From Escherichia coli (GTDB taxonomy: Bacteria > Pseudomonadota > Gammaproteobacteria > Enterobacterales > Enterobacteriaceae), in the NCBI RefSeq assembly GCF_003790525.1, contig NZ_CP033635.1: DNA of 64,000 bases; one strand, given 5' to 3'. Below, one piece after another: positions 17,671-47,250 of the stretch. The position numbers and the translations under genes are program-made. The first letter of the stretch is position 1. Every line of letters begins with the position of its first letter. The notes below the pieces were generated by a model, which searched no databases, had not been told where the DNA came from, and saw nothing but the letters and a program-made list of their open reading frames with translations.

Positions 17671-18255
17671 TTATTGTTTGTTTTTTTCGTTCTGGTTGAT
17701 GACAAATTCAATGTAACTTTCGATCTTTGCTTTCTCGGTTTCGGGTAACAATGCGTAGCGCGAGCGATCATAGTTGATGGTCGCAGGGTCATGCGGATGA
17801 ATCAGTAGTTCATATCCGTGACGCCCGAATGCAGATGCAACATTCTCCAGGGTGGAAATGGAAACGCTGACCTCATTGTTTAACAGGCGGCTTATTGTCA
17901 CCTGGGCGACGCCGGATGCGCGGTGAAGTTTTCCCTGAGTTGAAAGGTCGCGGCTTTCACTCATCCAGCGTTCCAGGTTGTGAGCCGCCAGCTGACCTAT
18001 ATCACTCGGGCCGACAGGCTGAAAACCCTCCTGAGAAAGCGAGCGATCAATATCAAGCCAGTTACGGGGTTTATTGGCGGCAGCTTCAATTTTTCGCGCA
18101 ACCTGGTCGCCGATAACCTTCTTGCCAAGAGCCCAGCGGTTTACCAGATTTGCCTGAGTTCCAAGTTTTTCTGCCATCCGCGTCTGAACACCATTGAATT
18201 CACGGTCGATCAAGTCGTTGAGATTTTGCCTGCGGACGTCCTGGATACTTTTCAT
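17671..18255 (-). CDS. putative immunity repressor with two HTH regions, no S24 peptidase domain
   Basis: 194 aa; HTH-like segments TRMAEKLGTQANLVNRWALG and ASGVAQVTISRLLNNEVSVSISTLENVASAF; divergent from cro-like gene across an operator cluster. Confidence 0.6.
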   Translation of the reverse strand: MKSIQDVRRQNLNDLIDREFNGVQTRMAEKLGTQANLVNRWALGKKVIGDQVARKIEAAANKPRNWLDIDRSLSQEGFQPVGPSDIGQLAAHNLERWMSESRDLSTQGKLHRASGVAQVTISRLLNNEVSVSISTLENVASAFGRHGYELLIHPHDPATINYDRSRYALLPETEKAKIESYIEFVINQNEKNKQ

Positions 18256-18310
18256 TTTCTGGAAAATCGCCTCATATATGAATCAGTAGATGATTCAATT
18301 TAAAGCAATA

Positions 18311-18325
18311 TTACCCAACAGGTAA
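18311..18325. promoter_or_regulatory. operator-like site 1 of 3 in repressor/cro intergenic region (perfect TTACC CAACA GGTAA)
   Basis: Palindrome in divergent promoter region. Confidence 0.55.
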
Positions 18326-27987: not shown

Positions 27988-28064
27988 TGGCGCGGCATGC
28001 AGGATTCGAACCTGCGACCAACCGCTTAGAAGGCGGTTGCTCTGTCCAACTGAGCTAATGCCAC
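27988..28064 (-). tRNA. tRNA-Arg (anticodon UCU), phage-encoded
   Basis: 77-nt cloverleaf folded by hand: acceptor GUGGCAU/AUGCCGC, D-stem GCUC/GAGC, anticodon stem ACCGC/GCGGU with loop CUUCUAA, T-arm GCAGG-UUCGAAU-CCUGC, encoded CCA. Confidence 0.85.
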
Positions 28065-33582: not shown

Positions 33583-34187
33583 TGGCCTCTGTAGTAGAGA
33601 TCTGCAATCGTGCGCTGTCCAATATTGGCAATAGCCGCAGCATTAACAGCCTGACGGAAGCCAGCAAGGAAGCGGGGGAATGTTCGCTGCACTTTGAGGC
33701 CTGCCGTGATGCTGTGCTTTCTGATTTTGACTGGAACTTTGCTACCAAACGCGTGGCGCTTGCAGATACGAGCAATCCACCGCCTGACTGGGAATATGCG
33801 TACCAGTACCCGTCAGATTGTCTGCGCATTACTGAAATTATGCTTCCTGGTGTACGCAATCCAACAGCAGCAATGCGCGTTCAGTACGAAGTTGGTGCAG
33901 ACACCAACGGAACAGGAAAGTTGATCTACACAGACCAGCCTCAGGCATGGCTCAAGTATGTCTCTCTCGTTACAGATGTGAACATGTTTGATGCCATTTT
34001 TATGGAGGCGTTGGCCTGGCGTCTTGCGGCAGCTATTAACATGGCGCTGACTGGGAATGCAGACCTCGGTACGTTTGCCCTCAATATGTACAATCGCGTG
34101 ATTCTTAGTGCTGGCTCGCATAGCCAGAATGAATCACAGGAACCACAGCCACCGGTTGATGAGTTTACCATTGCGAGGTTGTCCTGA
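33582..34187 (+). CDS. hypothetical virion protein (possible head-tail adaptor)
   Basis: 201 aa, coupled. Confidence 0.35.
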   Translation: MASVVEICNRALSNIGNSRSINSLTEASKEAGECSLHFEACRDAVLSDFDWNFATKRVALADTSNPPPDWEYAYQYPSDCLRITEIMLPGVRNPTAAMRVQYEVGADTNGTGKLIYTDQPQAWLKYVSLVTDVNMFDAIFMEALAWRLAAAINMALTGNADLGTFALNMYNRVILSAGSHSQNESQEPQPPVDEFTIARLS

Positions 34188-36658
34188 TGGCTATCAGTTG
34201 GATCCAGCCCAGCTTTGCCGGTGGTGAGATTGGACCGTCGTTGTACGGGCGTATTGACATGGCGAAGTACCAGGTAGCATTGCGCAAGTGCGATAACTTT
34301 ATCGTGCGGCAGTATGGCGGCGTTGAGAATCGACCTGGTACGCGTTTTGTCGGTGCCGCCAAATACCCAAATCGGAAATGCCGCCTGATCCCGTTCCAAT
34401 TCTCGACGGTTCAGACTTATGCTCTGGAGTTCGGACACCAGTACATGCGCGTTATCAAAGATGGTGCGTTGGTGCTGAACAGCAGCAATGTTATTTATGA
34501 AATTGCCACGCCATATACTGAAGCCGATCTGTTCCGAATTAAATTCACGCAAAGCGCCGACGTGCTTACGCTGGTTCACCCGGCATACCCGCCGAAAGAG
34601 CTGCGCCGCTATGCGCATGACAACTGGCAACTGGTTGATGTGGTAACGAAGAACGGGCCATTTGAAGATATCAATATTGATGAGTCAGTGACGGTTTATG
34701 CCAGCGCCAGCACCGGGACAATTACGTTAACGGCAAGCGCCTCTATTTTTGGCGCGGAGCAGGTAGGCAAATTGTTCTATCTGGAACAGCCTGCAGTGGA
34801 TTCTGTGCCGGTATGGGAAACCAGTAAGAGTACGTCGATTGGCGATATTCGCCGTGCAGACAGTAACTACTATCGCGCCGTTACAGCAGGCAAAACAGGC
34901 ACTTTGCGCCCTTCGCATACAGAAGGCACATCATGGGATGGCTGGGGCGGATCCGGTGATGATGATACTGGCATTGAGTGGGAGTATCTGCACAGTGGTT
35001 TTGGCATTGCCCGTATAACTGCTGTAAATGGCACTACTGCAACTGCTGAGGTGATTTCCTATATCCCTTCGCAGGTCGTTGGCGAGGATAATGCCAGCTA
35101 TAAATGGGCTAAATATGCCTGGAACAGTGTTAATGGTTATCCTGGCACTGTTGTTTATTATCAACAACGTCTTTACTTCGCCGCATCGACTGCGTTCCCT
35201 CAGACCATCTGGGCCAGCCGTACCGGGGATTATAAGGATTTTGGCAAAAGCAATCCTACGCAGGATGACGACAGAATTATCTACACCTATGCCGGGCGTC
35301 AGGTTAATGAGATCCGTCACCTGATTGATGTTGGTTCTCTGGTGGCGCTGACTTCCGGAGGTGAGTACGTCATCACCGGCGACCAGAACAAAGTGTTAAC
35401 CCCATCATCATTTGCATTCAGCTCTCAGGGATCAAATGGCTCGAGTAATGTCCCACCAATTGCCGTAGCGAATATTGCTCTGTTCGTCCAGGAGAAAGGC
35501 AGTGTTGTCCGTGATCTGGCCTACTCATTCGATGTTGACGGCTATCAGGGGAACGACCTGACCATCCTTGCCAATCATCTTTTTCAGAAGCACAGCATTG
35601 TTGACTGGTGCTTCTCGATTGTCCCTTACTCCAGCGCCTTCTGCATCCGTGATGACGGTAAATTACTGGTGATGACCTATTTGCGTGATCAACAGGTTTT
35701 TGCATGGGCACCACAGTCCAGTACCGGAAAATATGAAAGCACATGCAGTATCAGCGAAGGCAATGAAGATGCGGTGTATTTCGTCGTTAACCGAACCGTT
35801 AACGGGCAAACAGTGAGATACATCGAGAGACTGTCCAGCCGTTTATTTACCAGCGATGAAGATGCTTTCTTTGTTGATTCTGGCCTTAGCTATGATGGAA
35901 GAAATACGTCTGACAGAACGATGACCATCACTGGTGGTTCTGGTGAATGGGATTACCGCGCGGAATATACAATCAGTGTTTCTGGTGGTGCGTACTTCAC
36001 CAGTAGTGATGTCGGTGCGCAACTACAGTTCCCTTATACCGGAACTGATCCTGATACTGGCGATGAAGTGTCAAAAGAATTACGTTGCGACATTATTTCT
36101 GTAACCAGCAATACCGCTGTAGTGGTTCGTGCTAACAGGAACGTCCCGCCATCCCTCAGGAATGTGGCCACCACGAACTGGCAGATGGCGCGCCGGACAT
36201 TTGGAGGCCTGTCTCATCTTGAAGGCCAGACCGTAAACATTCTTTCTGATGCGAATGTTGAGCCACAGAAAGTTGTTTCCGGAGGTGCCGTCACACTGGA
36301 ATCACCGGGGGCTGTAGTGCACATCGGCCTGCCAATAACTGCTGAATTCGAAACACTGGATATCAACATTAACGGACAGGAAACGCTGCTGGACAAAAAA
36401 CAGGTGATCCCCTCCGTTACTCTGGTTGTGAATGCCAGCCGCGGCATCTGGGCGACTACGCCTGGCGGTAAATGGTACGAACATCCACAGCGTGAATTCG
36501 AGTTCTACGATGATCCTGTTGATGATGCTACCGGAAAAGTAGAAGTGAAACTGGACAGTAACTGGGGCAAAAACGGACGTGTAAAAATCCGTCAGCTTGA
36601 CCCGTTGCCGCTGTCTGTTCTTGCCGTTATTCCTCGCCTTACTGTTGGGGGATTCTGA
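34187..36658 (+). CDS. large tail tube/nozzle-type structural protein
   Basis: 823 aa in tail region of a podovirus-like module. Confidence 0.4.
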   Translation: MAISWIQPSFAGGEIGPSLYGRIDMAKYQVALRKCDNFIVRQYGGVENRPGTRFVGAAKYPNRKCRLIPFQFSTVQTYALEFGHQYMRVIKDGALVLNSSNVIYEIATPYTEADLFRIKFTQSADVLTLVHPAYPPKELRRYAHDNWQLVDVVTKNGPFEDINIDESVTVYASASTGTITLTASASIFGAEQVGKLFYLEQPAVDSVPVWETSKSTSIGDIRRADSNYYRAVTAGKTGTLRPSHTEGTSWDGWGGSGDDDTGIEWEYLHSGFGIARITAVNGTTATAEVISYIPSQVVGEDNASYKWAKYAWNSVNGYPGTVVYYQQRLYFAASTAFPQTIWASRTGDYKDFGKSNPTQDDDRIIYTYAGRQVNEIRHLIDVGSLVALTSGGEYVITGDQNKVLTPSSFAFSSQGSNGSSNVPPIAVANIALFVQEKGSVVRDLAYSFDVDGYQGNDLTILANHLFQKHSIVDWCFSIVPYSSAFCIRDDGKLLVMTYLRDQQVFAWAPQSSTGKYESTCSISEGNEDAVYFVVNRTVNGQTVRYIERLSSRLFTSDEDAFFVDSGLSYDGRNTSDRTMTITGGSGEWDYRAEYTISVSGGAYFTSSDVGAQLQFPYTGTDPDTGDEVSKELRCDIISVTSNTAVVVRANRNVPPSLRNVATTNWQMARRTFGGLSHLEGQTVNILSDANVEPQKVVSGGAVTLESPGAVVHIGLPITAEFETLDININGQETLLDKKQVIPSVTLVVNASRGIWATTPGGKWYEHPQREFEFYDDPVDDATGKVEVKLDSNWGKNGRVKIRQLDPLPLSVLAVIPRLTVGGF

Positions 36659-45152: not shown

Positions 45153-45175
45153 ACAAAAAAGCCCGCAGCGCGGGC
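45153..45175 (-). terminator. rho-independent terminator after two-gene cassette
   Basis: gcccgc agcg cgggc hairpin with T-run on minus strand. Confidence 0.5.
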
Positions 45176-45615
45176 TATTCTTCTTCATCATTAAAAAGCG
45201 GATTGTTGTTTCCATCTGATGAAAGGAAAGGTATGTGTTCTCTTGAAAATCCAACAATGACAATTTCATTATCATTTTTTGCATAATGAATGCATTCATT
45301 AGAATGCCTTCCGCCAGGGTTGAAATTTAAGTTAATGGTATAATTCTTAAATGTGTTTGGATACCATGTTGGCCCACAATGATAATGCCAATAATTCTCT
45401 TGCTCATAATTGTCTGAGCCGGGAATTTTATCATGGTTATCATCAACCCACGAGGGCTTGTTTTTTCCAACAAGCGCCCTTCCATTGGCAACATCCTCTA
45501 AAAAACTTTGTATGATTTTTATTTCATCATCAGTAAGGAAAGGTCCGTCTACAGCGAAAGGGGTGTTGCTTTCCCCATGTAGAAAACTATTAGATATTCT
45601 AATGTTAAACTTCAA
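45175..45615 (-). CDS. hypothetical ~147-aa protein, downstream gene of two-gene cassette (candidate toxin/effector)
   Basis: TTG start with SD AGGAG 6 nt upstream (an in-frame ATG at 45756 has no SD and overlaps the upstream gene); contains WHYHCGP and GGRHSNECIH segments; low GC. Confidence 0.4.
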   Translation of the reverse strand: MKFNIRISNSFLHGESNTPFAVDGPFLTDDEIKIIQSFLEDVANGRALVGKNKPSWVDDNHDKIPGSDNYEQENYWHYHCGPTWYPNTFKNYTINLNFNPGGRHSNECIHYAKNDNEIVIVGFSREHIPFLSSDGNNNPLFNDEEE

Positions 45616-45635
45616 GGAAAACTCCTGATGTGCTT

Positions 45636-45803
45636 CTATTTGGAGCGAAATGCCGCCTTGAAGTCGCTGAAAGATGTTCCTGTCTGGTAAACCATATCCT
45701 TGTCGCGCTCTTTGCTTGCGCGGCCAAGCATAACTTTTCCAATGACATCCCAGCATTGCTTGGCTTGTTCATTGTGCTGAGTACGATTTTTCAACGCTGT
45801 CAT
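45636..45803 (-). CDS. hypothetical 55-aa protein, upstream gene of two-gene cassette (candidate antitoxin/regulator)
   Basis: ATG with SD AGGAGG; MTALKNRTQHNEQAKQCWDVIGKVMLGRASKERDKDMVYQTGTSFSDFKAAFRSK; not in ORF track (<60 aa). Confidence 0.4.
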   Translation of the reverse strand: MTALKNRTQHNEQAKQCWDVIGKVMLGRASKERDKDMVYQTGTSFSDFKAAFRSK

Positions 45804-45815
45804 ATCGCGCCTCCT

Positions 45816-45830
45816 TTACCTTTAAGGTAA
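45816..45830. promoter_or_regulatory. TTACC-N5-GGTAA operator-like site (perfect) upstream of two-gene cassette
   Basis: TTACC TTTAA GGTAA. Confidence 0.5.
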
Positions 45831-45902: not shown

Positions 45903-46592
45903 TCAGAAGAACCCAGCCTTGTCGTTGATGTACTCCGCGTGGGTCTGGATATCACGCAGGCATTTGCTCACACCAACAATGTAGCAGAACATGGTGGTCA
46001 GCTCCGCCGCCGCGCCCGATACGTCGTGCCCGTCTTCCTGTAACTGGTTCAGCAGATTCATCAGCAGTGAGTTCTCCGTCAGGCCGAGAACACCAGACGG
46101 AGAATGAATCAGGCTGCGGTAGCCGGGCTTCAGTGGGGCACTGTAGGTTTTGTTCTCTATCTTCATTGCCTGCATCACTGCTGATGCTGTGGCGTTGGCT
46201 ACCTGGTCGGCAACTATCTTTATGCGTTCTTCCTGCGGGAGCGAGTTTTTAATGTAACTTCCGGTGCGGCGGATCTGAGGAAGAACCTCACCTGTAACCC
46301 ATTTACGAAAGCGGTAGGGGATAGTGCCTGGTGTCACTGCGTCGCGGCAGCGGAGGATCAGTGTGTAGAGGCCTGACTCGTTGATAATATTGGTTTCACC
46401 TTGACGGCCTAAGTTAAATTTAGCCCTTTCATCATCATCAAGAGATTTTATTGACATAGTGGGGTTTGTCAGTTGAAGAGCTTTAATAACGTCTTTGGCA
46501 ACAAACCAAGGATTTCCATCAATAACAATGGCTCGAATGGTGGCTTCTGATTCAAAATGAAAAACAGATGGGGTTACGTTAGCAGTCATAGT
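45903..46592 (-). CDS. Bro-N domain protein (antirepressor-like)
   Basis: Start MTANVTPSVFHFESEATIRAIVIDGNPWFVAKDVIKALQL typical of Bro-N/KilA-N-type N-terminus; SD AAAGGTGAT. Confidence 0.55.
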   Translation of the reverse strand, partial: TMTANVTPSVFHFESEATIRAIVIDGNPWFVAKDVIKALQLTNPTMSIKSLDDDERAKFNLGRQGETNIINESGLYTLILRCRDAVTPGTIPYRFRKWVTGEVLPQIRRTGSYIKNSLPQEERIKIVADQVANATASAVMQAMKIENKTYSAPLKPGYRSLIHSPSGVLGLTENSLLMNLLNQLQEDGHDVSGAAAELTTMFCYIVGVSKCLRDIQTHAEYINDKAGFF

Positions 46593-46855
46593 GATCACCT
46601 TTGTAGTTAGGTTAATCACCACTACCGACGCCAATCGGTTGGTGGTGAACTGTGCAGGGTTGGCGTAACCGGCTACAAAGGACCCGGCGCACCTTTCGGT
46701 GCCCCCACACAGCCCACCATAGAATAGGTGCGCTTTACACATAAAAAAACCGCTTATGCGGCATATGTGCCTCTGTAGTAACCCGGGACGCCAATCCCGG
46801 CACTGGATTTTGCCAGTGCCCGATTACTATGGCACAAGAGGAGTGCGATGTAAAT

Positions 46856-46870
46856 TTACCGAAAAGGTAA
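46856..46870. promoter_or_regulatory. TTACC-N5-GGTAA operator-like site (perfect)
   Basis: TTACC GAAAA GGTAA. Confidence 0.5.
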
Positions 46871-46901
46871 TAATAAACACTCTACTTGGTAATTGCAAAC
46901 C

Positions 46902-47159
46902 TTATCTGGTTTGTTTTCGTAATTGTTCGGCACAATAGTCGAGATGTGTTTGCAGATCCCGCATAGACATCTGTGAGCTGGTGACGTAGTTAATCAGTGC
47001 AGTCAGTTCGGCAAGTGGGCCATCGACATTAAATCCATCCTTATCGAGATCCCGGAGTAATTTCATCAAGTGCGATCCCTCCACCAGTGACCTGACGCCT
47101 CCCGGCGTGTGAATCCTTTCGGTAAATCCGTCTTCCAGTGGATAGTGATACTGCTGCAT
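46902..47159 (-). CDS. small protein homologous to the C-terminal domain of the adjacent Bro-N protein
   Basis: IHTPGGVRSLVEGSHLMKLLRDLDKDGFNVDGPLAELT aligns with IHSPSGVLGLTENSLLMNLLNQLQEDGHDVSGAAAELT of 45903-46592. Confidence 0.45.
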   Translation of the reverse strand: MQQYHYPLEDGFTERIHTPGGVRSLVEGSHLMKLLRDLDKDGFNVDGPLAELTALINYVTSSQMSMRDLQTHLDYCAEQLRKQTR

Positions 47160-47235
47160 CTTATCTTCTCCATGCAATAACTGTATATTTATACAGTATC
47201 AAATAATTTGTTTGCTATCCAGCACGTTTTGCAAA

Positions 47236-47250
47236 TTACCCGAAAGGTAA
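47236..47250. promoter_or_regulatory. TTACC-N5-GGTAA operator-like site (perfect) in divergent region upstream of tailspike
   Basis: TTACC CGAAA GGTAA. Confidence 0.5.

What the first reader, a model, noticed from the sequence alone, without database searches (positions are those of the whole stretch)
46593..46901. About 300 bp GC-rich, hairpin-dense noncoding stretch between the Bro paralog and the Bro-N gene
No credible ORF (the 60-aa plus-strand ORF at 46756-46938 lacks support). The stretch contains a perfect operator-like site (46856-46870), a weak hairpin with T-run on the minus strand (about 46746-46761), and several stable hairpins (46689-46702 GCACC-TTTC-GGTGC; 46782-46800; 46801-46818 CACTGG-ATTTTG-CCAGTG). 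This could be a structured 5' leader or a small regulatory RNA controlling the antirepressor-like gene.
Basis: partly seen in the sequence, partly recalled or inferred. Interest (0 to 1): 0.45.

Follow-up and report, generated by a model that had tools for sequence, protein, structure and literature searches.

The report
Antisense RNA switch controlling phage antirepressor
The 300-bp spacer encodes, on the minus strand, two already-described phage small RNAs (an IsrK-like RNA and a C4 antisense RNA) that can base-pair with each other and with the ribosome-binding site of the next gene, an antirepressor; it is a genuine P1-type immunity switch in an E. coli phiV10-like prophage, but of a known kind.

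Summary
The transcript folds far better than shuffles (z = -6.2). The stretch as a whole is not GC-rich: 49.8% against a window mean of 49.9%.

On the minus strand the spacer is a complete P1 immI-type cassette:
- an operator-like palindrome flanked by two promoter-like sites;
- an IsrK-like RNA (Rfam isrK, 74.7 bits), made of two hairpins, a linker and a terminator, which carries target sites a1 and b1;
- a C4 antisense RNA (Rfam C4, 79.5 bits), with b' in a hairpin loop and a' in a single-stranded junction;
- a second copy of the targets, a2 in a hairpin loop and b2 on the Shine-Dalgarno sequence of the Bro-N antirepressor gene.

Across 31 variants from related prophages and 13 other phages (P1, Gifsy-1, APSE, Stx phages and others), a'/a1/a2 and b'/b1/b2 change together, including a matched one-base deletion at all three b sites.

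The likely mechanism is that C4 blocks translation of ant, and that the a1b1 RNA competes for C4. Expression and processing are untested.

It is a new member of a known kind. It differs from P1 in having no icd gene, a different operator, and a gene with a LexA box immediately upstream.

The parts
46870..46898 (-). Upstream promoter-like site: -35 TTGCAA (46898..46893), 17-nt spacer, -10 TATTAT (46875..46870). Its -10 abuts the operator-like palindrome.
   Evidence: Consensus scan, 9 of 12 matches. The other allele of this segment in relatives also offers a TTGATT/TATCAT pair. No expression data.
46856..46870 (.). Operator-like palindrome TTACC-N5-GGTAA, lying between the -10 of the upstream promoter-like site and the -35 of the promoter-like site in front of the IsrK-like RNA.
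   Evidence: 10 such sites in the window against 0 expected. The arms are invariant and the 5-nt centre varies freely in 31 relatives. The protein that binds it is inferred, not shown.
46826..46854 (-). Promoter-like site for the IsrK-like RNA: -35 TTTACA (46854..46849), 17-nt spacer, TG-extended -10 CATAGT (46831..46826). The -10 ends 7 nt before hairpin 1.
   Evidence: Consensus scan. The stretch TTGTGCCATAGT is invariant in A1. The geometry matches P1 promoter P1c4/P51b and the promoter-like TTGACA-17-TATATT in Gifsy-1.
46743..46819 (-). IsrK-like RNA, equivalent to the P1 a1b1 element plus a terminator. It comprises hairpin 1 (46819..46800), hairpin 2 (46800..46783) with a1 UUGGCGU in its loop (46794..46788), linker site b1 CUACAGAGG (46778..46770), and terminator GCCGC-AUAA-GCGGU plus U7 (46762..46743).
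   Evidence: Rfam isrK 74.7 bits against gathering score 50. Rfam c4-a1b1 44.1 bits against gathering score 46.7. Terminator scan. Hairpins are 100% paired in 31 variants.
46638..46724 (-). C4 antisense RNA. Closing stem 46719..46703 with 46659..46643; hairpin 1 46702..46689; hairpin 2 46688..46668 with b' CCUUUGUAG in its loop (46681..46673); a' ACGCCAA in the single-stranded junction (46666..46660). By homology to P1 the mature RNA would be about 46718..46641.
   Evidence: Rfam C4 79.5 bits against gathering score 45. The minimum-energy fold equals the Rfam consensus. Closing stem: 17 pairs, 100% paired, 3 with compensatory changes. Mature ends are inferred from the P1 record.
46624..46639 (-). 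Target a2: hairpin ACCG-AUUGGCGU-CGGU presenting UUGGCGU (46634..46628) in its loop. A longer stem, 46647..46617, competes with the 3' strand of the C4 closing stem.
   Evidence: Direct reading. a'-a2: 7 pairs, 100% paired, 4 with changes on both sides.
46595..46606 (-). Target b2 CUACAAAGG (46606..46598), overlapping the Shine-Dalgarno sequence AAGGUGA (46601..46595) of ant. The start codon is at 46589.
   Evidence: Perfect 9-bp complement of b'. It covaries with b' and b1, including a matched one-base deletion. The composite a-N-b pattern occurs only at a1b1, at a2b2 and, as its complement, in C4; 0 expected by chance.
45903..46589 (-). Regulated gene: a 228-aa Bro-N antirepressor.
   Evidence: Pfam Bro-N, 1.3e-19. 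PHROG 130 'anti-repressor Ant', 1e-55. RefSeq calls the same start codon.
46902..47250 (-). Upstream context: an 85-aa gene (ATG 47159, stop 46904..46902) that is a paralog of the Ant C-terminal domain. It is preceded by a LexA box TACTGTATAAATATACAGTT (47198..47179) and a second TTACC-N5-GGTAA site (47250..47236). No terminator is predicted between this gene and the IsrK-like RNA.
   Evidence: BLASTP 41% identity, 2e-16. The CTG/CAG arms are kept in 63 of 66 upstream variants while the centre varies. Terminator scan.

Best explanation
The spacer is a P1 immI-type RNA immunity cassette, read on the minus strand in an E. coli phiV10/epsilon15-like (Uetakevirus) prophage. I use the site names of the P1 record: a pairs with the junction of C4, and b pairs with its hairpin-2 loop.

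Proposed sequence of events:
1. Transcription starts at one or two promoters that flank a repressor-operator-like palindrome.
2. It first produces an IsrK-like RNA: hairpin 1, hairpin 2 displaying site a1, linker site b1, and an intrinsic terminator.
3. Read-through transcripts continue into a C4 antisense RNA. This has a long closing stem, two hairpins, b' exposed in the loop of hairpin 2 and a' in the junction. By analogy with P1 it is cut out of the precursor.
4. C4 pairs through a' with a2, which is displayed in a hairpin loop just downstream. It pairs through b' with b2, which covers the 5' half of the Shine-Dalgarno sequence of the Bro-N antirepressor gene.
5. Ribosomes are kept off and no antirepressor is made. 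Because C4 is diffusible, it would also silence ant on an incoming phage with the same a/b sequences.
6. The a1b1 RNA is an even longer complement of the same C4 segment (23 bp). It is therefore expected to compete for C4, either in cis within the unprocessed transcript or in trans as the terminated short RNA, and so to relieve repression. This is what IsrK does experimentally in Gifsy-1.

Shown here: family membership by covariance model, the folds, the complementarities and their co-evolution.
Inferred: transcription, processing, the direction of regulation, and who binds the palindrome.
For: - Rfam hits above gathering score: C4 79.5 against 45 and isrK 74.7 against 50.
- The predicted fold of the C4 stretch equals the family consensus.
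- In 31 distinct leader variants from related prophages, the C4 closing stem is 100% paired with 3 compensatory pairs. a1-a' and a2-a' are 100% paired with 4 of 7 pairs changed on both sides. b1-b' is 100% paired. No shuffle of 500 reaches the observed covariation, and slid controls drop to 37-48% paired.
- Three-way switches can be read directly. b'/b1/b2 are CCUUUGUAG/CUACAGAGG/CUACAAAGG in the window, CCUUUUAG/CUAAAAGG/CUAAAAGG in the phiV10 type, and CCACUUAG/CUAAGUGG/CUAAGUGG in the L064 type. a'/a1/a2 are ACGCCAA/UUGGCGU/UUGGCGU in the window, GUGCAAA/UUUGCAC/UUUGCAC in L039, and AGACCAA/UUGGUCU/UUGGUCU in Tyrion.
- The same rule holds in P1, Stx phages, 2H10, a Klebsiella phage, an Actinobacillus phage and APSE-7, and in Gifsy-1. 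Across the 13 phages, cognate duplexes average about -10 kcal/mol against -5.5 to -7 for non-cognate ones.
- The composite a-N-b site occurs only at a1b1, at a2b2 and, as its complement, in C4, with 0 expected by chance.
- b2 overlaps the Shine-Dalgarno sequence, as b2 does in front of icd in the P1 record, which annotates it as 'repression of icd ant translation'.
- Gifsy-1, where IsrK given in trans raises antirepressor translation more than 100-fold and compensatory mutants map to the b'a' region (paper PMC4825925), has the same isrK-C4 tandem.
- a1b1 pairs with b'a' over 23 bp in the minimum-energy fold. It is the stronger partner in 12 of 14 phages in a crude duplex calculation.
Against: - There are no expression, end-mapping or processing data for this locus.
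- The c4-a1b1 model scores just under its gathering score (44.1 against 46.7).
- RNAcofold gives no net gain for C4 with either target, but it cannot model loop-loop contacts.
- The minimum-energy fold of the unprocessed 227-nt transcript disrupts the canonical C4 fold (-104 against -96.7 kcal/mol). C4 would therefore have to fold co-transcriptionally or after cleavage.
- The palindrome lies 1 nt from the -35 of the promoter-like site in front of the IsrK-like RNA. A bound repressor might shut off C4 synthesis in a lysogen as well, which would not fit a pure P1-style maintenance role.
- There is no icd-like or orf45-like coupled ORF, so details of the P1 and Gifsy-1 mechanisms cannot simply be transferred.
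Confidence: 0.85

Rival explanations
1. Gifsy-1-style activator reading. The main regulator is the short terminated IsrK-like RNA. It acts in trans on a translationally inert read-through mRNA, whose a1b1 is paired in cis with the C4 region. The short RNA displaces that helix and opens the ribosome-binding site. On this reading the C4-like stretch is chiefly an mRNA segment, not a free repressor RNA.
For: - This is the experimental model for the homologous Gifsy-1 locus (PMC4825925), which has the same isrK-C4 tandem.
- The minimum-energy fold of the window's unprocessed transcript is exactly such a cis a1b1:b'a' helix of 23 bp.
Against: - In the window there is no orf45. The AUG at 46720 opens only 15 codons, and the long frame is open in 12 of 31 variants. 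The translational coupling that the Gifsy-1 model requires is therefore absent.
- This reading does not explain why a2 and b2 co-vary with a' and b' just as tightly as a1 and b1 do, or why b2 sits on the Shine-Dalgarno sequence.
- A processed RNA (STnc1160) from this position exists in Salmonella.
- The two readings are compatible rather than exclusive.
Confidence: 0.3
2. Control of transcription elongation rather than translation. C4 pairing with a2/b2 (and a1/b1) causes premature termination upstream of ant. This is how the CI RNA of satellite phage P4 acts with seqA/seqC, and how Rho-dependent polarity follows C4 action in P1.
For: - The architecture (target - RNA - target) matches P4 seqA-CI-seqC; the IsrK paper draws the same comparison.
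- That P1 C4 lowers ant transcription through polarity is my own knowledge of Biere, Citron and Schuster 1992, which I did not retrieve.
Against: - No terminator is predicted between C4 and ant.
- Only 48 nt separate C4 from the start codon.
- b2 covers the Shine-Dalgarno sequence itself, the signature of a translational block.
- Without an upstream ORF there is nothing for polarity to act on before ant itself.
Confidence: 0.15
3. A purely cis-acting structured leader. The hairpins only set mRNA stability or attenuation, and no stable small RNA is released.
For: The leader is very stable (z = -6.2) and contains a terminator.
Against: - Two covariance models of RNAs that are known to be released match above gathering score.
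- Three-way covariation of sites up to about 180 nt apart, with different spacings, is what trans-capable loop-loop pairing predicts.
- The homologous RNAs are detected as separate species in Salmonella.
Confidence: 0.07
4. The stretch is protein-coding: an N-terminal extension of the Bro-N protein (279 aa from ATG 46742), an orf45-like peptide, or the plus-strand 60-aa ORF.
For: In the window the frame is open from ATG 46742 into ant. The IsrK paper notes that in S. dysenteriae orf45 appears fused to anrP.
Against: - The extension is closed within 4-9 codons of the ant start in 19 of 31 variants.
- The plus-strand ORF loses its start codon in relatives.
- One-base and six-base indels are compensated in RNA partners, not in a reading frame.
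- RefSeq starts the gene at 46589.
Confidence: 0.02

Closest known systems
immI operon of phages P1 and P7 (Oc4/Op51, promoters P51a and P51b, a1 b1, c4, a2 b2, icd, ant1/2)
   Same: - The order of parts on one strand is the same: operator, promoters, hairpin 1, a1 in the loop of hairpin 2, b1 in the linker, a terminator-like hairpin, C4 with b' in the hairpin-2 loop and a' in the junction, a2, then b2 on the Shine-Dalgarno sequence of the next ORF (P1 record and sequence).
- The -10 of P51b ends 7 nt before hairpin 1, as here.
- P1's own a1b1 region also matches the isrK model, at 35 bits.
   Different: - There is no icd. b2 sits on the Shine-Dalgarno sequence of the antirepressor itself.
- The antirepressor is a 228-aa Bro-N protein with no significant similarity to Ant1.
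- The operator is a TTACC-N5-GGTAA palindrome abutting the -35, not the asymmetric 17-mer bound by C1 some 40 nt upstream.
- The a and b sequences differ.
- A gene with a LexA box lies immediately upstream.
Gifsy-1 isrK - orf45/STnc1160 - anrP locus of Salmonella (Hershko-Shalev et al. 2016, PMC4825925)
   Same: - The same isrK plus C4 tandem in front of an antirepressor: isrK 79.3 bits and C4 69 bits.
- The same a' ACGCCAA and a1/a2 UUGGCGU.
- b2 directly before the Shine-Dalgarno sequence.
- The same predicted cis helix between a1b1 and the C4 region (against the paper's 'structure A').
   Different: - In Gifsy-1 the C4 stretch is also read as orf45, which is translationally coupled to anrP. 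That ORF does not exist here.
- AnrP is unrelated to the Bro-N protein.
- The Gifsy-1 paper does not name the downstream RNA as C4, and compares IsrK with seqA of P4 instead.
APSE phages of Hamiltonella (Rouil et al. 2020, PMC7313666; record LR794146)
   Same: The record annotates isrK, C4 and its a'/b' segments directly upstream of a Bro-N gene, the same gene type as here. The a and b sites covary in the same way.
   Different: - Different phage genus (Sendosyvirus) and different a/b sequences.
- The record labels the loop a' and the junction b', the reverse of the P1 record.
- No LexA-box gene was seen upstream in the stretch fetched.
CI RNA immunity of satellite phage P4 (seqA - CI/seqB - seqC) and the CA RNA of phage N15
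   Same: A processed small RNA flanked by an upstream and a downstream copy of its target, controlling anti-immunity or replication genes. For P4 this rests on the description; for N15 on my own knowledge, which I did not retrieve.
   Different: P4 CI acts by premature transcription termination and its target is not an antirepressor ribosome-binding site. Neither system was tested here.
sar antisense RNA of the phage P22 immI region
   Same: A small RNA that limits synthesis of an antirepressor (own knowledge).
   Different: sar is transcribed from the opposite strand across the ant start and is fully complementary to it. Here the RNA is on the same strand and pairs through two short, separated sites.

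Membership tests
C4 antisense RNA (Rfam RF01695; P1/P7 c4) | Covariance-model score at or above the gathering score | tested here: met
   79.5 bits against 45, full-length match to model positions 1-87 at 46724..46638 (-).
C4 antisense RNA (Rfam RF01695; P1/P7 c4) | Long closing stem enclosing two hairpins, with an open hairpin-2 loop and an open junction | tested here: met
   The minimum-energy fold equals the consensus. Closing stem: 17 of 17 pairs, 100% paired in 31 variants, 3 compensatory.
C4 antisense RNA (Rfam RF01695; P1/P7 c4) | Loop (b') and junction (a') complementary to two sites downstream (a2, b2), with b2 at the ribosome-binding site of the next ORF | tested here: met
   7-bp and 9-bp perfect complements; b2 overlaps the Shine-Dalgarno sequence. 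Covariation is seen. The composite site is unique in the window.
C4 antisense RNA (Rfam RF01695; P1/P7 c4) | The same two sites repeated upstream of the RNA (a1, b1) | tested here: met
   a1 at 46794..46788 and b1 at 46778..46770. Both helices are 100% paired, with compensatory changes and a matched indel.
C4 antisense RNA (Rfam RF01695; P1/P7 c4) | Located upstream of an antirepressor gene on the same strand | tested here: met
   Bro-N / PHROG 130 'anti-repressor Ant', start 46589 (-).
C4 antisense RNA (Rfam RF01695; P1/P7 c4) | icd-like ORF between C4 and ant, translationally coupled to ant | tested here: not met
   Only 48 nt lie between C4 and the ant start codon, and no conserved ORF is present. 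This is a feature of the P1 operon rather than of the RNA family.
C4 antisense RNA (Rfam RF01695; P1/P7 c4) | Cut out of a precursor (RNase P at the 5' end) to about 77 nt, and repression in trans | not testable with these tools
   Only homology to the annotated P1 ends is available. The CACCACCA 3' end is invariant in A1.
C4 antisense RNA (Rfam RF01695; P1/P7 c4) | Operon promoter under an operator of the prophage repressor | tested here: inconclusive
   A palindrome of a 10-member family overlaps or abuts both promoter-like sites. The binding protein is not identified. The candidate is a 194-aa protein with HTH domains only.
isrK (Rfam RF01394) | Covariance-model score at or above the gathering score | tested here: met
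   74.7 bits against 50, match to model positions 1-77 at 46819..46743 (-).
isrK (Rfam RF01394) | Two 5' hairpins, a linker and an intrinsic terminator with a U tail | tested here: met
   Hairpins 1 and 2 are 100% paired in 31 variants.
isrK (Rfam RF01394) | Sits immediately upstream of the STnc1160/orf45 region and an antirepressor gene, as in Gifsy-1 | tested here: met
   Gifsy-1 has isrK at 34316..34240, C4 at 34214..34131 and the anrP start at 34076. The same tandem is present in all 12 other loci scanned.
isrK (Rfam RF01394) | orf45 translated and coupled to the antirepressor | tested here: not met
   No conserved ORF. The AUG at 46720 gives 15 codons.
isrK (Rfam RF01394) | Hfq binding; activation of antirepressor translation in trans | not testable with these tools
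   Known only for Salmonella.
c4-a1b1 motif (Rfam RF03163) | Covariance-model score at or above the gathering score | tested here: inconclusive
   44.1 bits against 46.7 (E = 5.6e-09) at 46832..46781. Relatives score from 26.9 to 50.6 and P1 itself 51.0. The region is covered by the isrK hit.
P4 CI RNA / seqA-seqC immunity | Small RNA causes premature transcription termination at its flanking targets | not tested
   Only the target - RNA - target layout is shared. No terminator is predicted between C4 and ant.

The most novel reading that the evidence does not exclude
The cassette is an SOS-responsive switch built from an antisense RNA and an anti-antisense RNA.
- After LexA cleavage, transcription from the promoter with the LexA box, in front of the 85-aa Ant-C-terminal paralog, runs without a terminator into the a1b1 element.
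- Because the terminator of the IsrK-like RNA lies between a1b1 and C4, extra transcription yields more a1b1 decoy than C4.
- The decoy pairs with C4 over 23 bp, against 7 + 9 bp for the ant leader. It therefore titrates C4 and frees the ant ribosome-binding site.
- The repressor has only HTH domains and no cleavage domain, so it would be inactivated by antirepressors rather than by RecA.
- The several a/b sequence alleles among otherwise near-identical prophages would then be RNA-encoded immunity specificities that decide which co-resident or incoming relatives are cross-silenced.
Probability: 0.2. Interest if true: 0.5.

Novelty: new member of a known kind. Interest (0 to 1): 0.3.

Why it matters
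- For annotation: this 312-nt spacer is left blank in RefSeq, although it is present at 80% coverage or more in 280 of 5,426 complete E. coli genomes, and in part in about 1,000. The phiV10 record marks only a terminator.
- For biology: the locus links three bodies of work that are usually cited separately, namely P1 c4/a1b1, Salmonella IsrK/STnc1160 and the APSE annotation. The IsrK-like RNA is the a1b1 element plus its terminator, and STnc1160/orf45 is C4.
- It shows that the RNA cassette is portable. It sits in front of unrelated antirepressor genes.
- It offers a natural series of a/b specificity alleles that makes RNA-based heteroimmunity directly testable.
- None of this changes the category. 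The mechanism was established for P1 in 1990 and for Gifsy-1 in 2016.

Tried and rejected
- I first labelled the loop site 'a' and the junction site 'b' (notes). The P1 record and sequence show the opposite naming. I adopted the P1 naming; the APSE record uses the reverse.
- RNAduplex on whole molecules and RNAcofold were uninformative. The first ignores intramolecular structure and the second cannot model kissing loops. I replaced them with segment-level duplexes and cognate-versus-non-cognate matrices.
- The hairpin-1 loop GCAAAAUC was considered as a target site. No complement was seen in C4 or in the ant leader on reading the sequence, and the L015-type variants carry the loop inverted. 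I rejected it as a pairing site.
- Coding potential (the 279-aa extension, an orf45-like frame, the plus-strand 60-aa ORF) was rejected.
- The Trp_leader hit at 45153..45259 (E = 0.59, below gathering score) is a chance or terminator-like match.
- In the MAFFT alignment A1 the L064-type b2 and C4 hairpins 1 and 2 are offset. This produces the 'not paired' cells in helices 5-7; direct reading shows perfect pairing.
- The classic P1 papers (PMC41593, PMC204598) are not held. RNase P processing and icd coupling are therefore cited from memory and from the P1 record only.
Full report
**1. What is in the sequence**

The stretch 46593-46901 lies between two minus-strand genes.
- Downstream is a 228-aa protein starting at ATG 46589. 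It matches Pfam Bro-N (1.3e-19) and PHROG 130 'anti-repressor Ant' (1e-55).
- Upstream is an 85-aa protein (ATG 47159, stop 46904..46902). It is 41% identical to residues 147-224 of that antirepressor (E = 2e-16).

- The palindrome is at 46856-46870.
- The three hairpins are at the stated positions.
- The minus-strand terminator has its stem at 46762..46749, followed by T7.

The 227-nt minus-strand transcript folds at -104 kcal/mol, against -76 +/- 4.5 for shuffles (z = -6.2).

The stretch as a whole is not GC-rich: 49.8% against 49.9% for the window. Only the core reaches 53-56%.

**2. Identification**

A scan with all Rfam models gives two matches above gathering score, both on the minus strand.
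- C4 antisense RNA at 46724..46638: 79.5 bits, gathering score 45.
- isrK at 46819..46743: 74.7 bits, gathering score 50.

A third model, c4-a1b1, scores just below its threshold under the isrK hit (44.1 against 46.7).

The window is an E. coli prophage of the phiV10/epsilon15 group (Uetakevirus). It is 92-97% identical to phiV10, TL-2011b and related phages over this region. The phiV10 record marks only a terminator here, and RefSeq leaves the spacer unannotated.

**3. Anatomy, using the P1 site names**

The fully annotated P1 record shows that 'a' is the site pairing with the single-stranded junction of C4, and 'b' is the site pairing with the loop of hairpin 2 and lying on the ribosome-binding site.

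Read 5' to 3' on the minus strand, the window holds the following parts.
- Promoter-like site: TTGCAA-17-TATTAT, 46898..46870.
- Palindrome TTACCTTTTCGGTAA, 46870..46856.
- Promoter-like site: TTTACA-17-(TG)CATAGT, 46854..46826.
- Hairpin 1, 46819..46800.
- Hairpin 2, 46800..46783, with a1 UUGGCGU in its loop.
- b1 CUACAGAGG, 46778..46770.
- Terminator, 46762..46743.
- C4, with b' CCUUUGUAG (46681..46673) in the hairpin-2 loop and a' ACGCCAA (46666..46660) in the junction.
- Hairpin 46639..46624, with a2 UUGGCGU in its loop.
- b2 CUACAAAGG, 46606..46598, overlapping the Shine-Dalgarno sequence AAGGUGA.
- ATG at 46589.

The targets are ordered a then b, and C4 is ordered b' then a'. The pairing is therefore antiparallel and colinear.

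The composite pattern UUGGCGU-N(5-35)-CUACARAGG occurs in the 64-kb window only at a1b1, at a2b2 and, as its complement, inside C4. None is expected by chance.

**4. Evidence from relatives**

A search with the antirepressor protein returned 79 loci from IMG/VR. Together with phiV10 and Tyrion they give 63 distinct leader sequences. I aligned 31 of them as alignment A1.

Counting pairs on A1:
- The C4 closing stem is 100% paired, with 3 compensatory pairs.
- a1-a' and a2-a' are 100% paired, with 4 of 7 pairs changed on both sides.
- b1-b' is 100% paired.
- No shuffle of 500 reaches the observed covariation.
- Sliding the partners by 1-3 columns drops pairing to 37-48%.

The changes are three-way.

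| Type | b' | b1 | b2 |
|---|---|---|---|
| Window | CCUUUGUAG | CUACAGAGG | CUACAAAGG |
| phiV10 | CCUUUUAG | CUAAAAGG | CUAAAAGG |
| L064 | CCACUUAG | CUAAGUGG | CUAAGUGG |

The phiV10 type has lost one base at all three b sites.

| Type | a' | a1 | a2 |
|---|---|---|---|
| Window | ACGCCAA | UUGGCGU | UUGGCGU |
| L039 | GUGCAAA | UUUGCAC | UUUGCAC |
| Tyrion | AGACCAA | UUGGUCU | UUGGUCU |

The isrK-C4 tandem is present in every further locus I scanned: Stx phages P27, 2851 and Min27, lambdoid phage 2H10, a Klebsiella phage, an Actinobacillus phage, APSE-7, P1 and Gifsy-1. In each, the loop and the junction match that phage's own upstream and downstream sites. Across the 13 phages, cognate duplexes average about -10 kcal/mol, against -5.5 to -7 for non-cognate combinations.

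This is the pattern expected for functional RNA-RNA recognition that diversifies into specificities, as is known for P1 against P7 (own knowledge).

**5. Not coding**

- The frame that runs from ATG 46742 into ant is open in only 12 of 31 variants.
- In the rest it closes 4-9 codons before the ant start.
- The plus-strand 60-aa ORF loses its start codon in relatives.
- Indels of one base are matched in RNA partner sites, not in a reading frame.

**6. Mechanism**

The best-supported account is the P1 one.
- C4 pairs with a2 and b2 and keeps ribosomes off the antirepressor message. The P1 record annotates a2 and b2 as sites of 'repression of icd ant translation', and Citron and Schuster 1990 is cited.
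- The a1b1 RNA is the second partner of C4.
- In the window, a1b1 and the b'a' segment can form 23 base pairs (46798..46770 with 46657..46681). That helix is the minimum-energy fold of the unprocessed transcript, at -104 kcal/mol against -96.7 with the canonical C4 fold.
- In a crude duplex calculation a1b1 is the stronger partner in 12 of 14 phages.

This matches 'structure A' of the Gifsy-1 study. There, IsrK supplied in trans raised antirepressor translation more than 100-fold, and compensatory mutations mapped to what is here the a1/a' helix (PMC4825925). Gifsy-1 'orf45'/STnc1160 is a C4 match at 69 bits.

I therefore read the IsrK-like RNA as a competitor of the ant leader for C4.

What is shown and what is inferred:
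- Shown here: the folds, the complementarities and their co-evolution.
- Inferred: transcription, processing, and the direction of the effect.

Points that sit badly with a simple transfer of the known models:
- The palindrome is 1 nt from the -35 of the promoter-like site in front of the IsrK-like RNA. A bound repressor might also lower C4 synthesis.
- There is no icd-like or orf45-like coupled ORF.

**7. The palindrome**

- TTACC-N5-GGTAA occurs 10 times in the window, against 0 expected.
- Three of these sites surround the gene of a 194-aa protein with HTH domains only and its divergent Cro-like neighbour.
- In relatives the arms are invariant and the five central bases vary freely. This is the signature of a dimeric DNA-binding protein.
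- Calling it an operator is reasonable, but the binder is not proven.

**8. Comparison and novelty**

The cassette is colinear with P1 immI, with the Gifsy-1 isrK locus and with the APSE arrangement. In APSE, isrK, C4 and a'/b' are already annotated in front of a Bro-N gene. Weinberg et al. 2010 list both the c4 and the c4-a1b1 motifs as occurring in proteobacteria and phages.

The window differs in four ways:
- b2 acts directly on the antirepressor's Shine-Dalgarno sequence.
- The operator type is different.
- The regulated protein is unrelated to AnrP, and has no significant similarity to P1 Ant1.
- The upstream gene carries a LexA box.

It is a new member of a known kind.

**9. Context noticed**

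- The 85-aa gene is preceded by a textbook LexA box (47198..47179). Its CTG and CAG arms are kept in 63 of 66 variants while the centre varies.
- It is also preceded by another palindrome (47250..47236).
- No terminator separates this gene from the a1b1 element.
- With a repressor that has no cleavage domain, this suggests induction through antirepressors under SOS control, as described for Gifsy phages (title and abstract of PMC3121763 as listed, plus my own knowledge).
- Whether SOS transcription shifts the ratio of a1b1 to C4 is the most interesting open reading. It is untested.

Noticed in passing
window 47179-47250 (minus strand) and gene 46902-47159: A LexA box TACTGTATAAATATACAGTT (47198..47179) and a second TTACC-N5-GGTAA palindrome (47250..47236) precede the 85-aa gene, which is a paralog of the C-terminal ~80 aa of the Bro-N antirepressor. 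The CTG/CAG arms are kept in 63 of 66 variants while the centre varies. No terminator lies between this gene and the IsrK-like RNA.
   Followed up: partly
window 17537, 17599, 18311, 20598, 20660, 24851, 28387, 45816, 46856, 47236: There are ten TTACC-N5-GGTAA palindromes, against 0 expected, scattered over about 30 kb. This suggests a dispersed operator network like that of P1 C1. The candidate repressor is the 194-aa protein at 17671..18255 (-), which has HTH domains only and no peptidase domain.
   Followed up: partly
L015:1247-1266 (three IMG/VR loci of this type): Hairpin 1 of the IsrK-like RNA is inverted: the loop is AUUUUG instead of CAAAAU, with the same stem. The isrK score drops to 56.7 and the c4-a1b1 score to 26.9. 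This suggests that the stem, not the loop sequence, is what matters.
   Followed up: no
L091 (Gifsy-1) 34131-34316; L083 (P1) 18231-18312: Gifsy-1 'orf45'/STnc1160 is an Rfam C4 match at 69 bits, and the first AUG of orf45 is the AUGG at the 5' end of the C4 closing stem. P1's a1b1 region with its terminator-like hairpin matches the isrK model at 35 bits. So IsrK equals a1b1 plus terminator. None of the papers I read says this outright: the IsrK paper names neither C4 nor a1b1 and the 2025 review lists IsrK and c4 as separate entries.
   Followed up: yes
window 45903-46589, against L091 33516-34076 and L083 18689-19729: The same RNA cassette sits in front of different proteins: the Bro-N Ant here, AnrP in Gifsy-1 (no similarity), and icd-Ant1 in P1 (no significant similarity). 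The cassette behaves as a portable regulatory module.
   Followed up: yes
window 46872-46901 (alignment A1, columns 5-38): The ~30 nt between the stop codon of the 85-aa gene and the palindrome come in two unrelated versions among otherwise near-identical prophages. The conserved sequence resumes a few bases upstream of the operator-like site, which looks like a recombination boundary.
   Followed up: no
window 45636-45830 and 45175-45756 (minus strand): Downstream of ant there is a hairpin followed by T-rich sequence, then another TTACC-N5-GGTAA site (45816-45830), an AGGAGG Shine-Dalgarno sequence, a 55-aa ORF (45803..45636) and a 193-aa ORF (PHROG 5954, unknown function).
   Followed up: no
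window 46617-46647: The stem CACCAC/GUGGUG around the a2 hairpin uses the same CACCA that closes the C4 stem, so the two structures exclude each other in an unprocessed transcript. GUGGUGAUUAA is invariant in 31 variants.
   Followed up: partly
window 27991-28064 (minus strand): A tRNA gene lies inside the prophage region (Rfam tRNA, 69.4 bits).
   Followed up: no
L082 (APSE-7) 1641-1665, against L083 (P1): The APSE record labels the hairpin-2 loop a' and the junction b'. The P1 record implies the reverse. The names are therefore not interchangeable between sources.
   Followed up: yes
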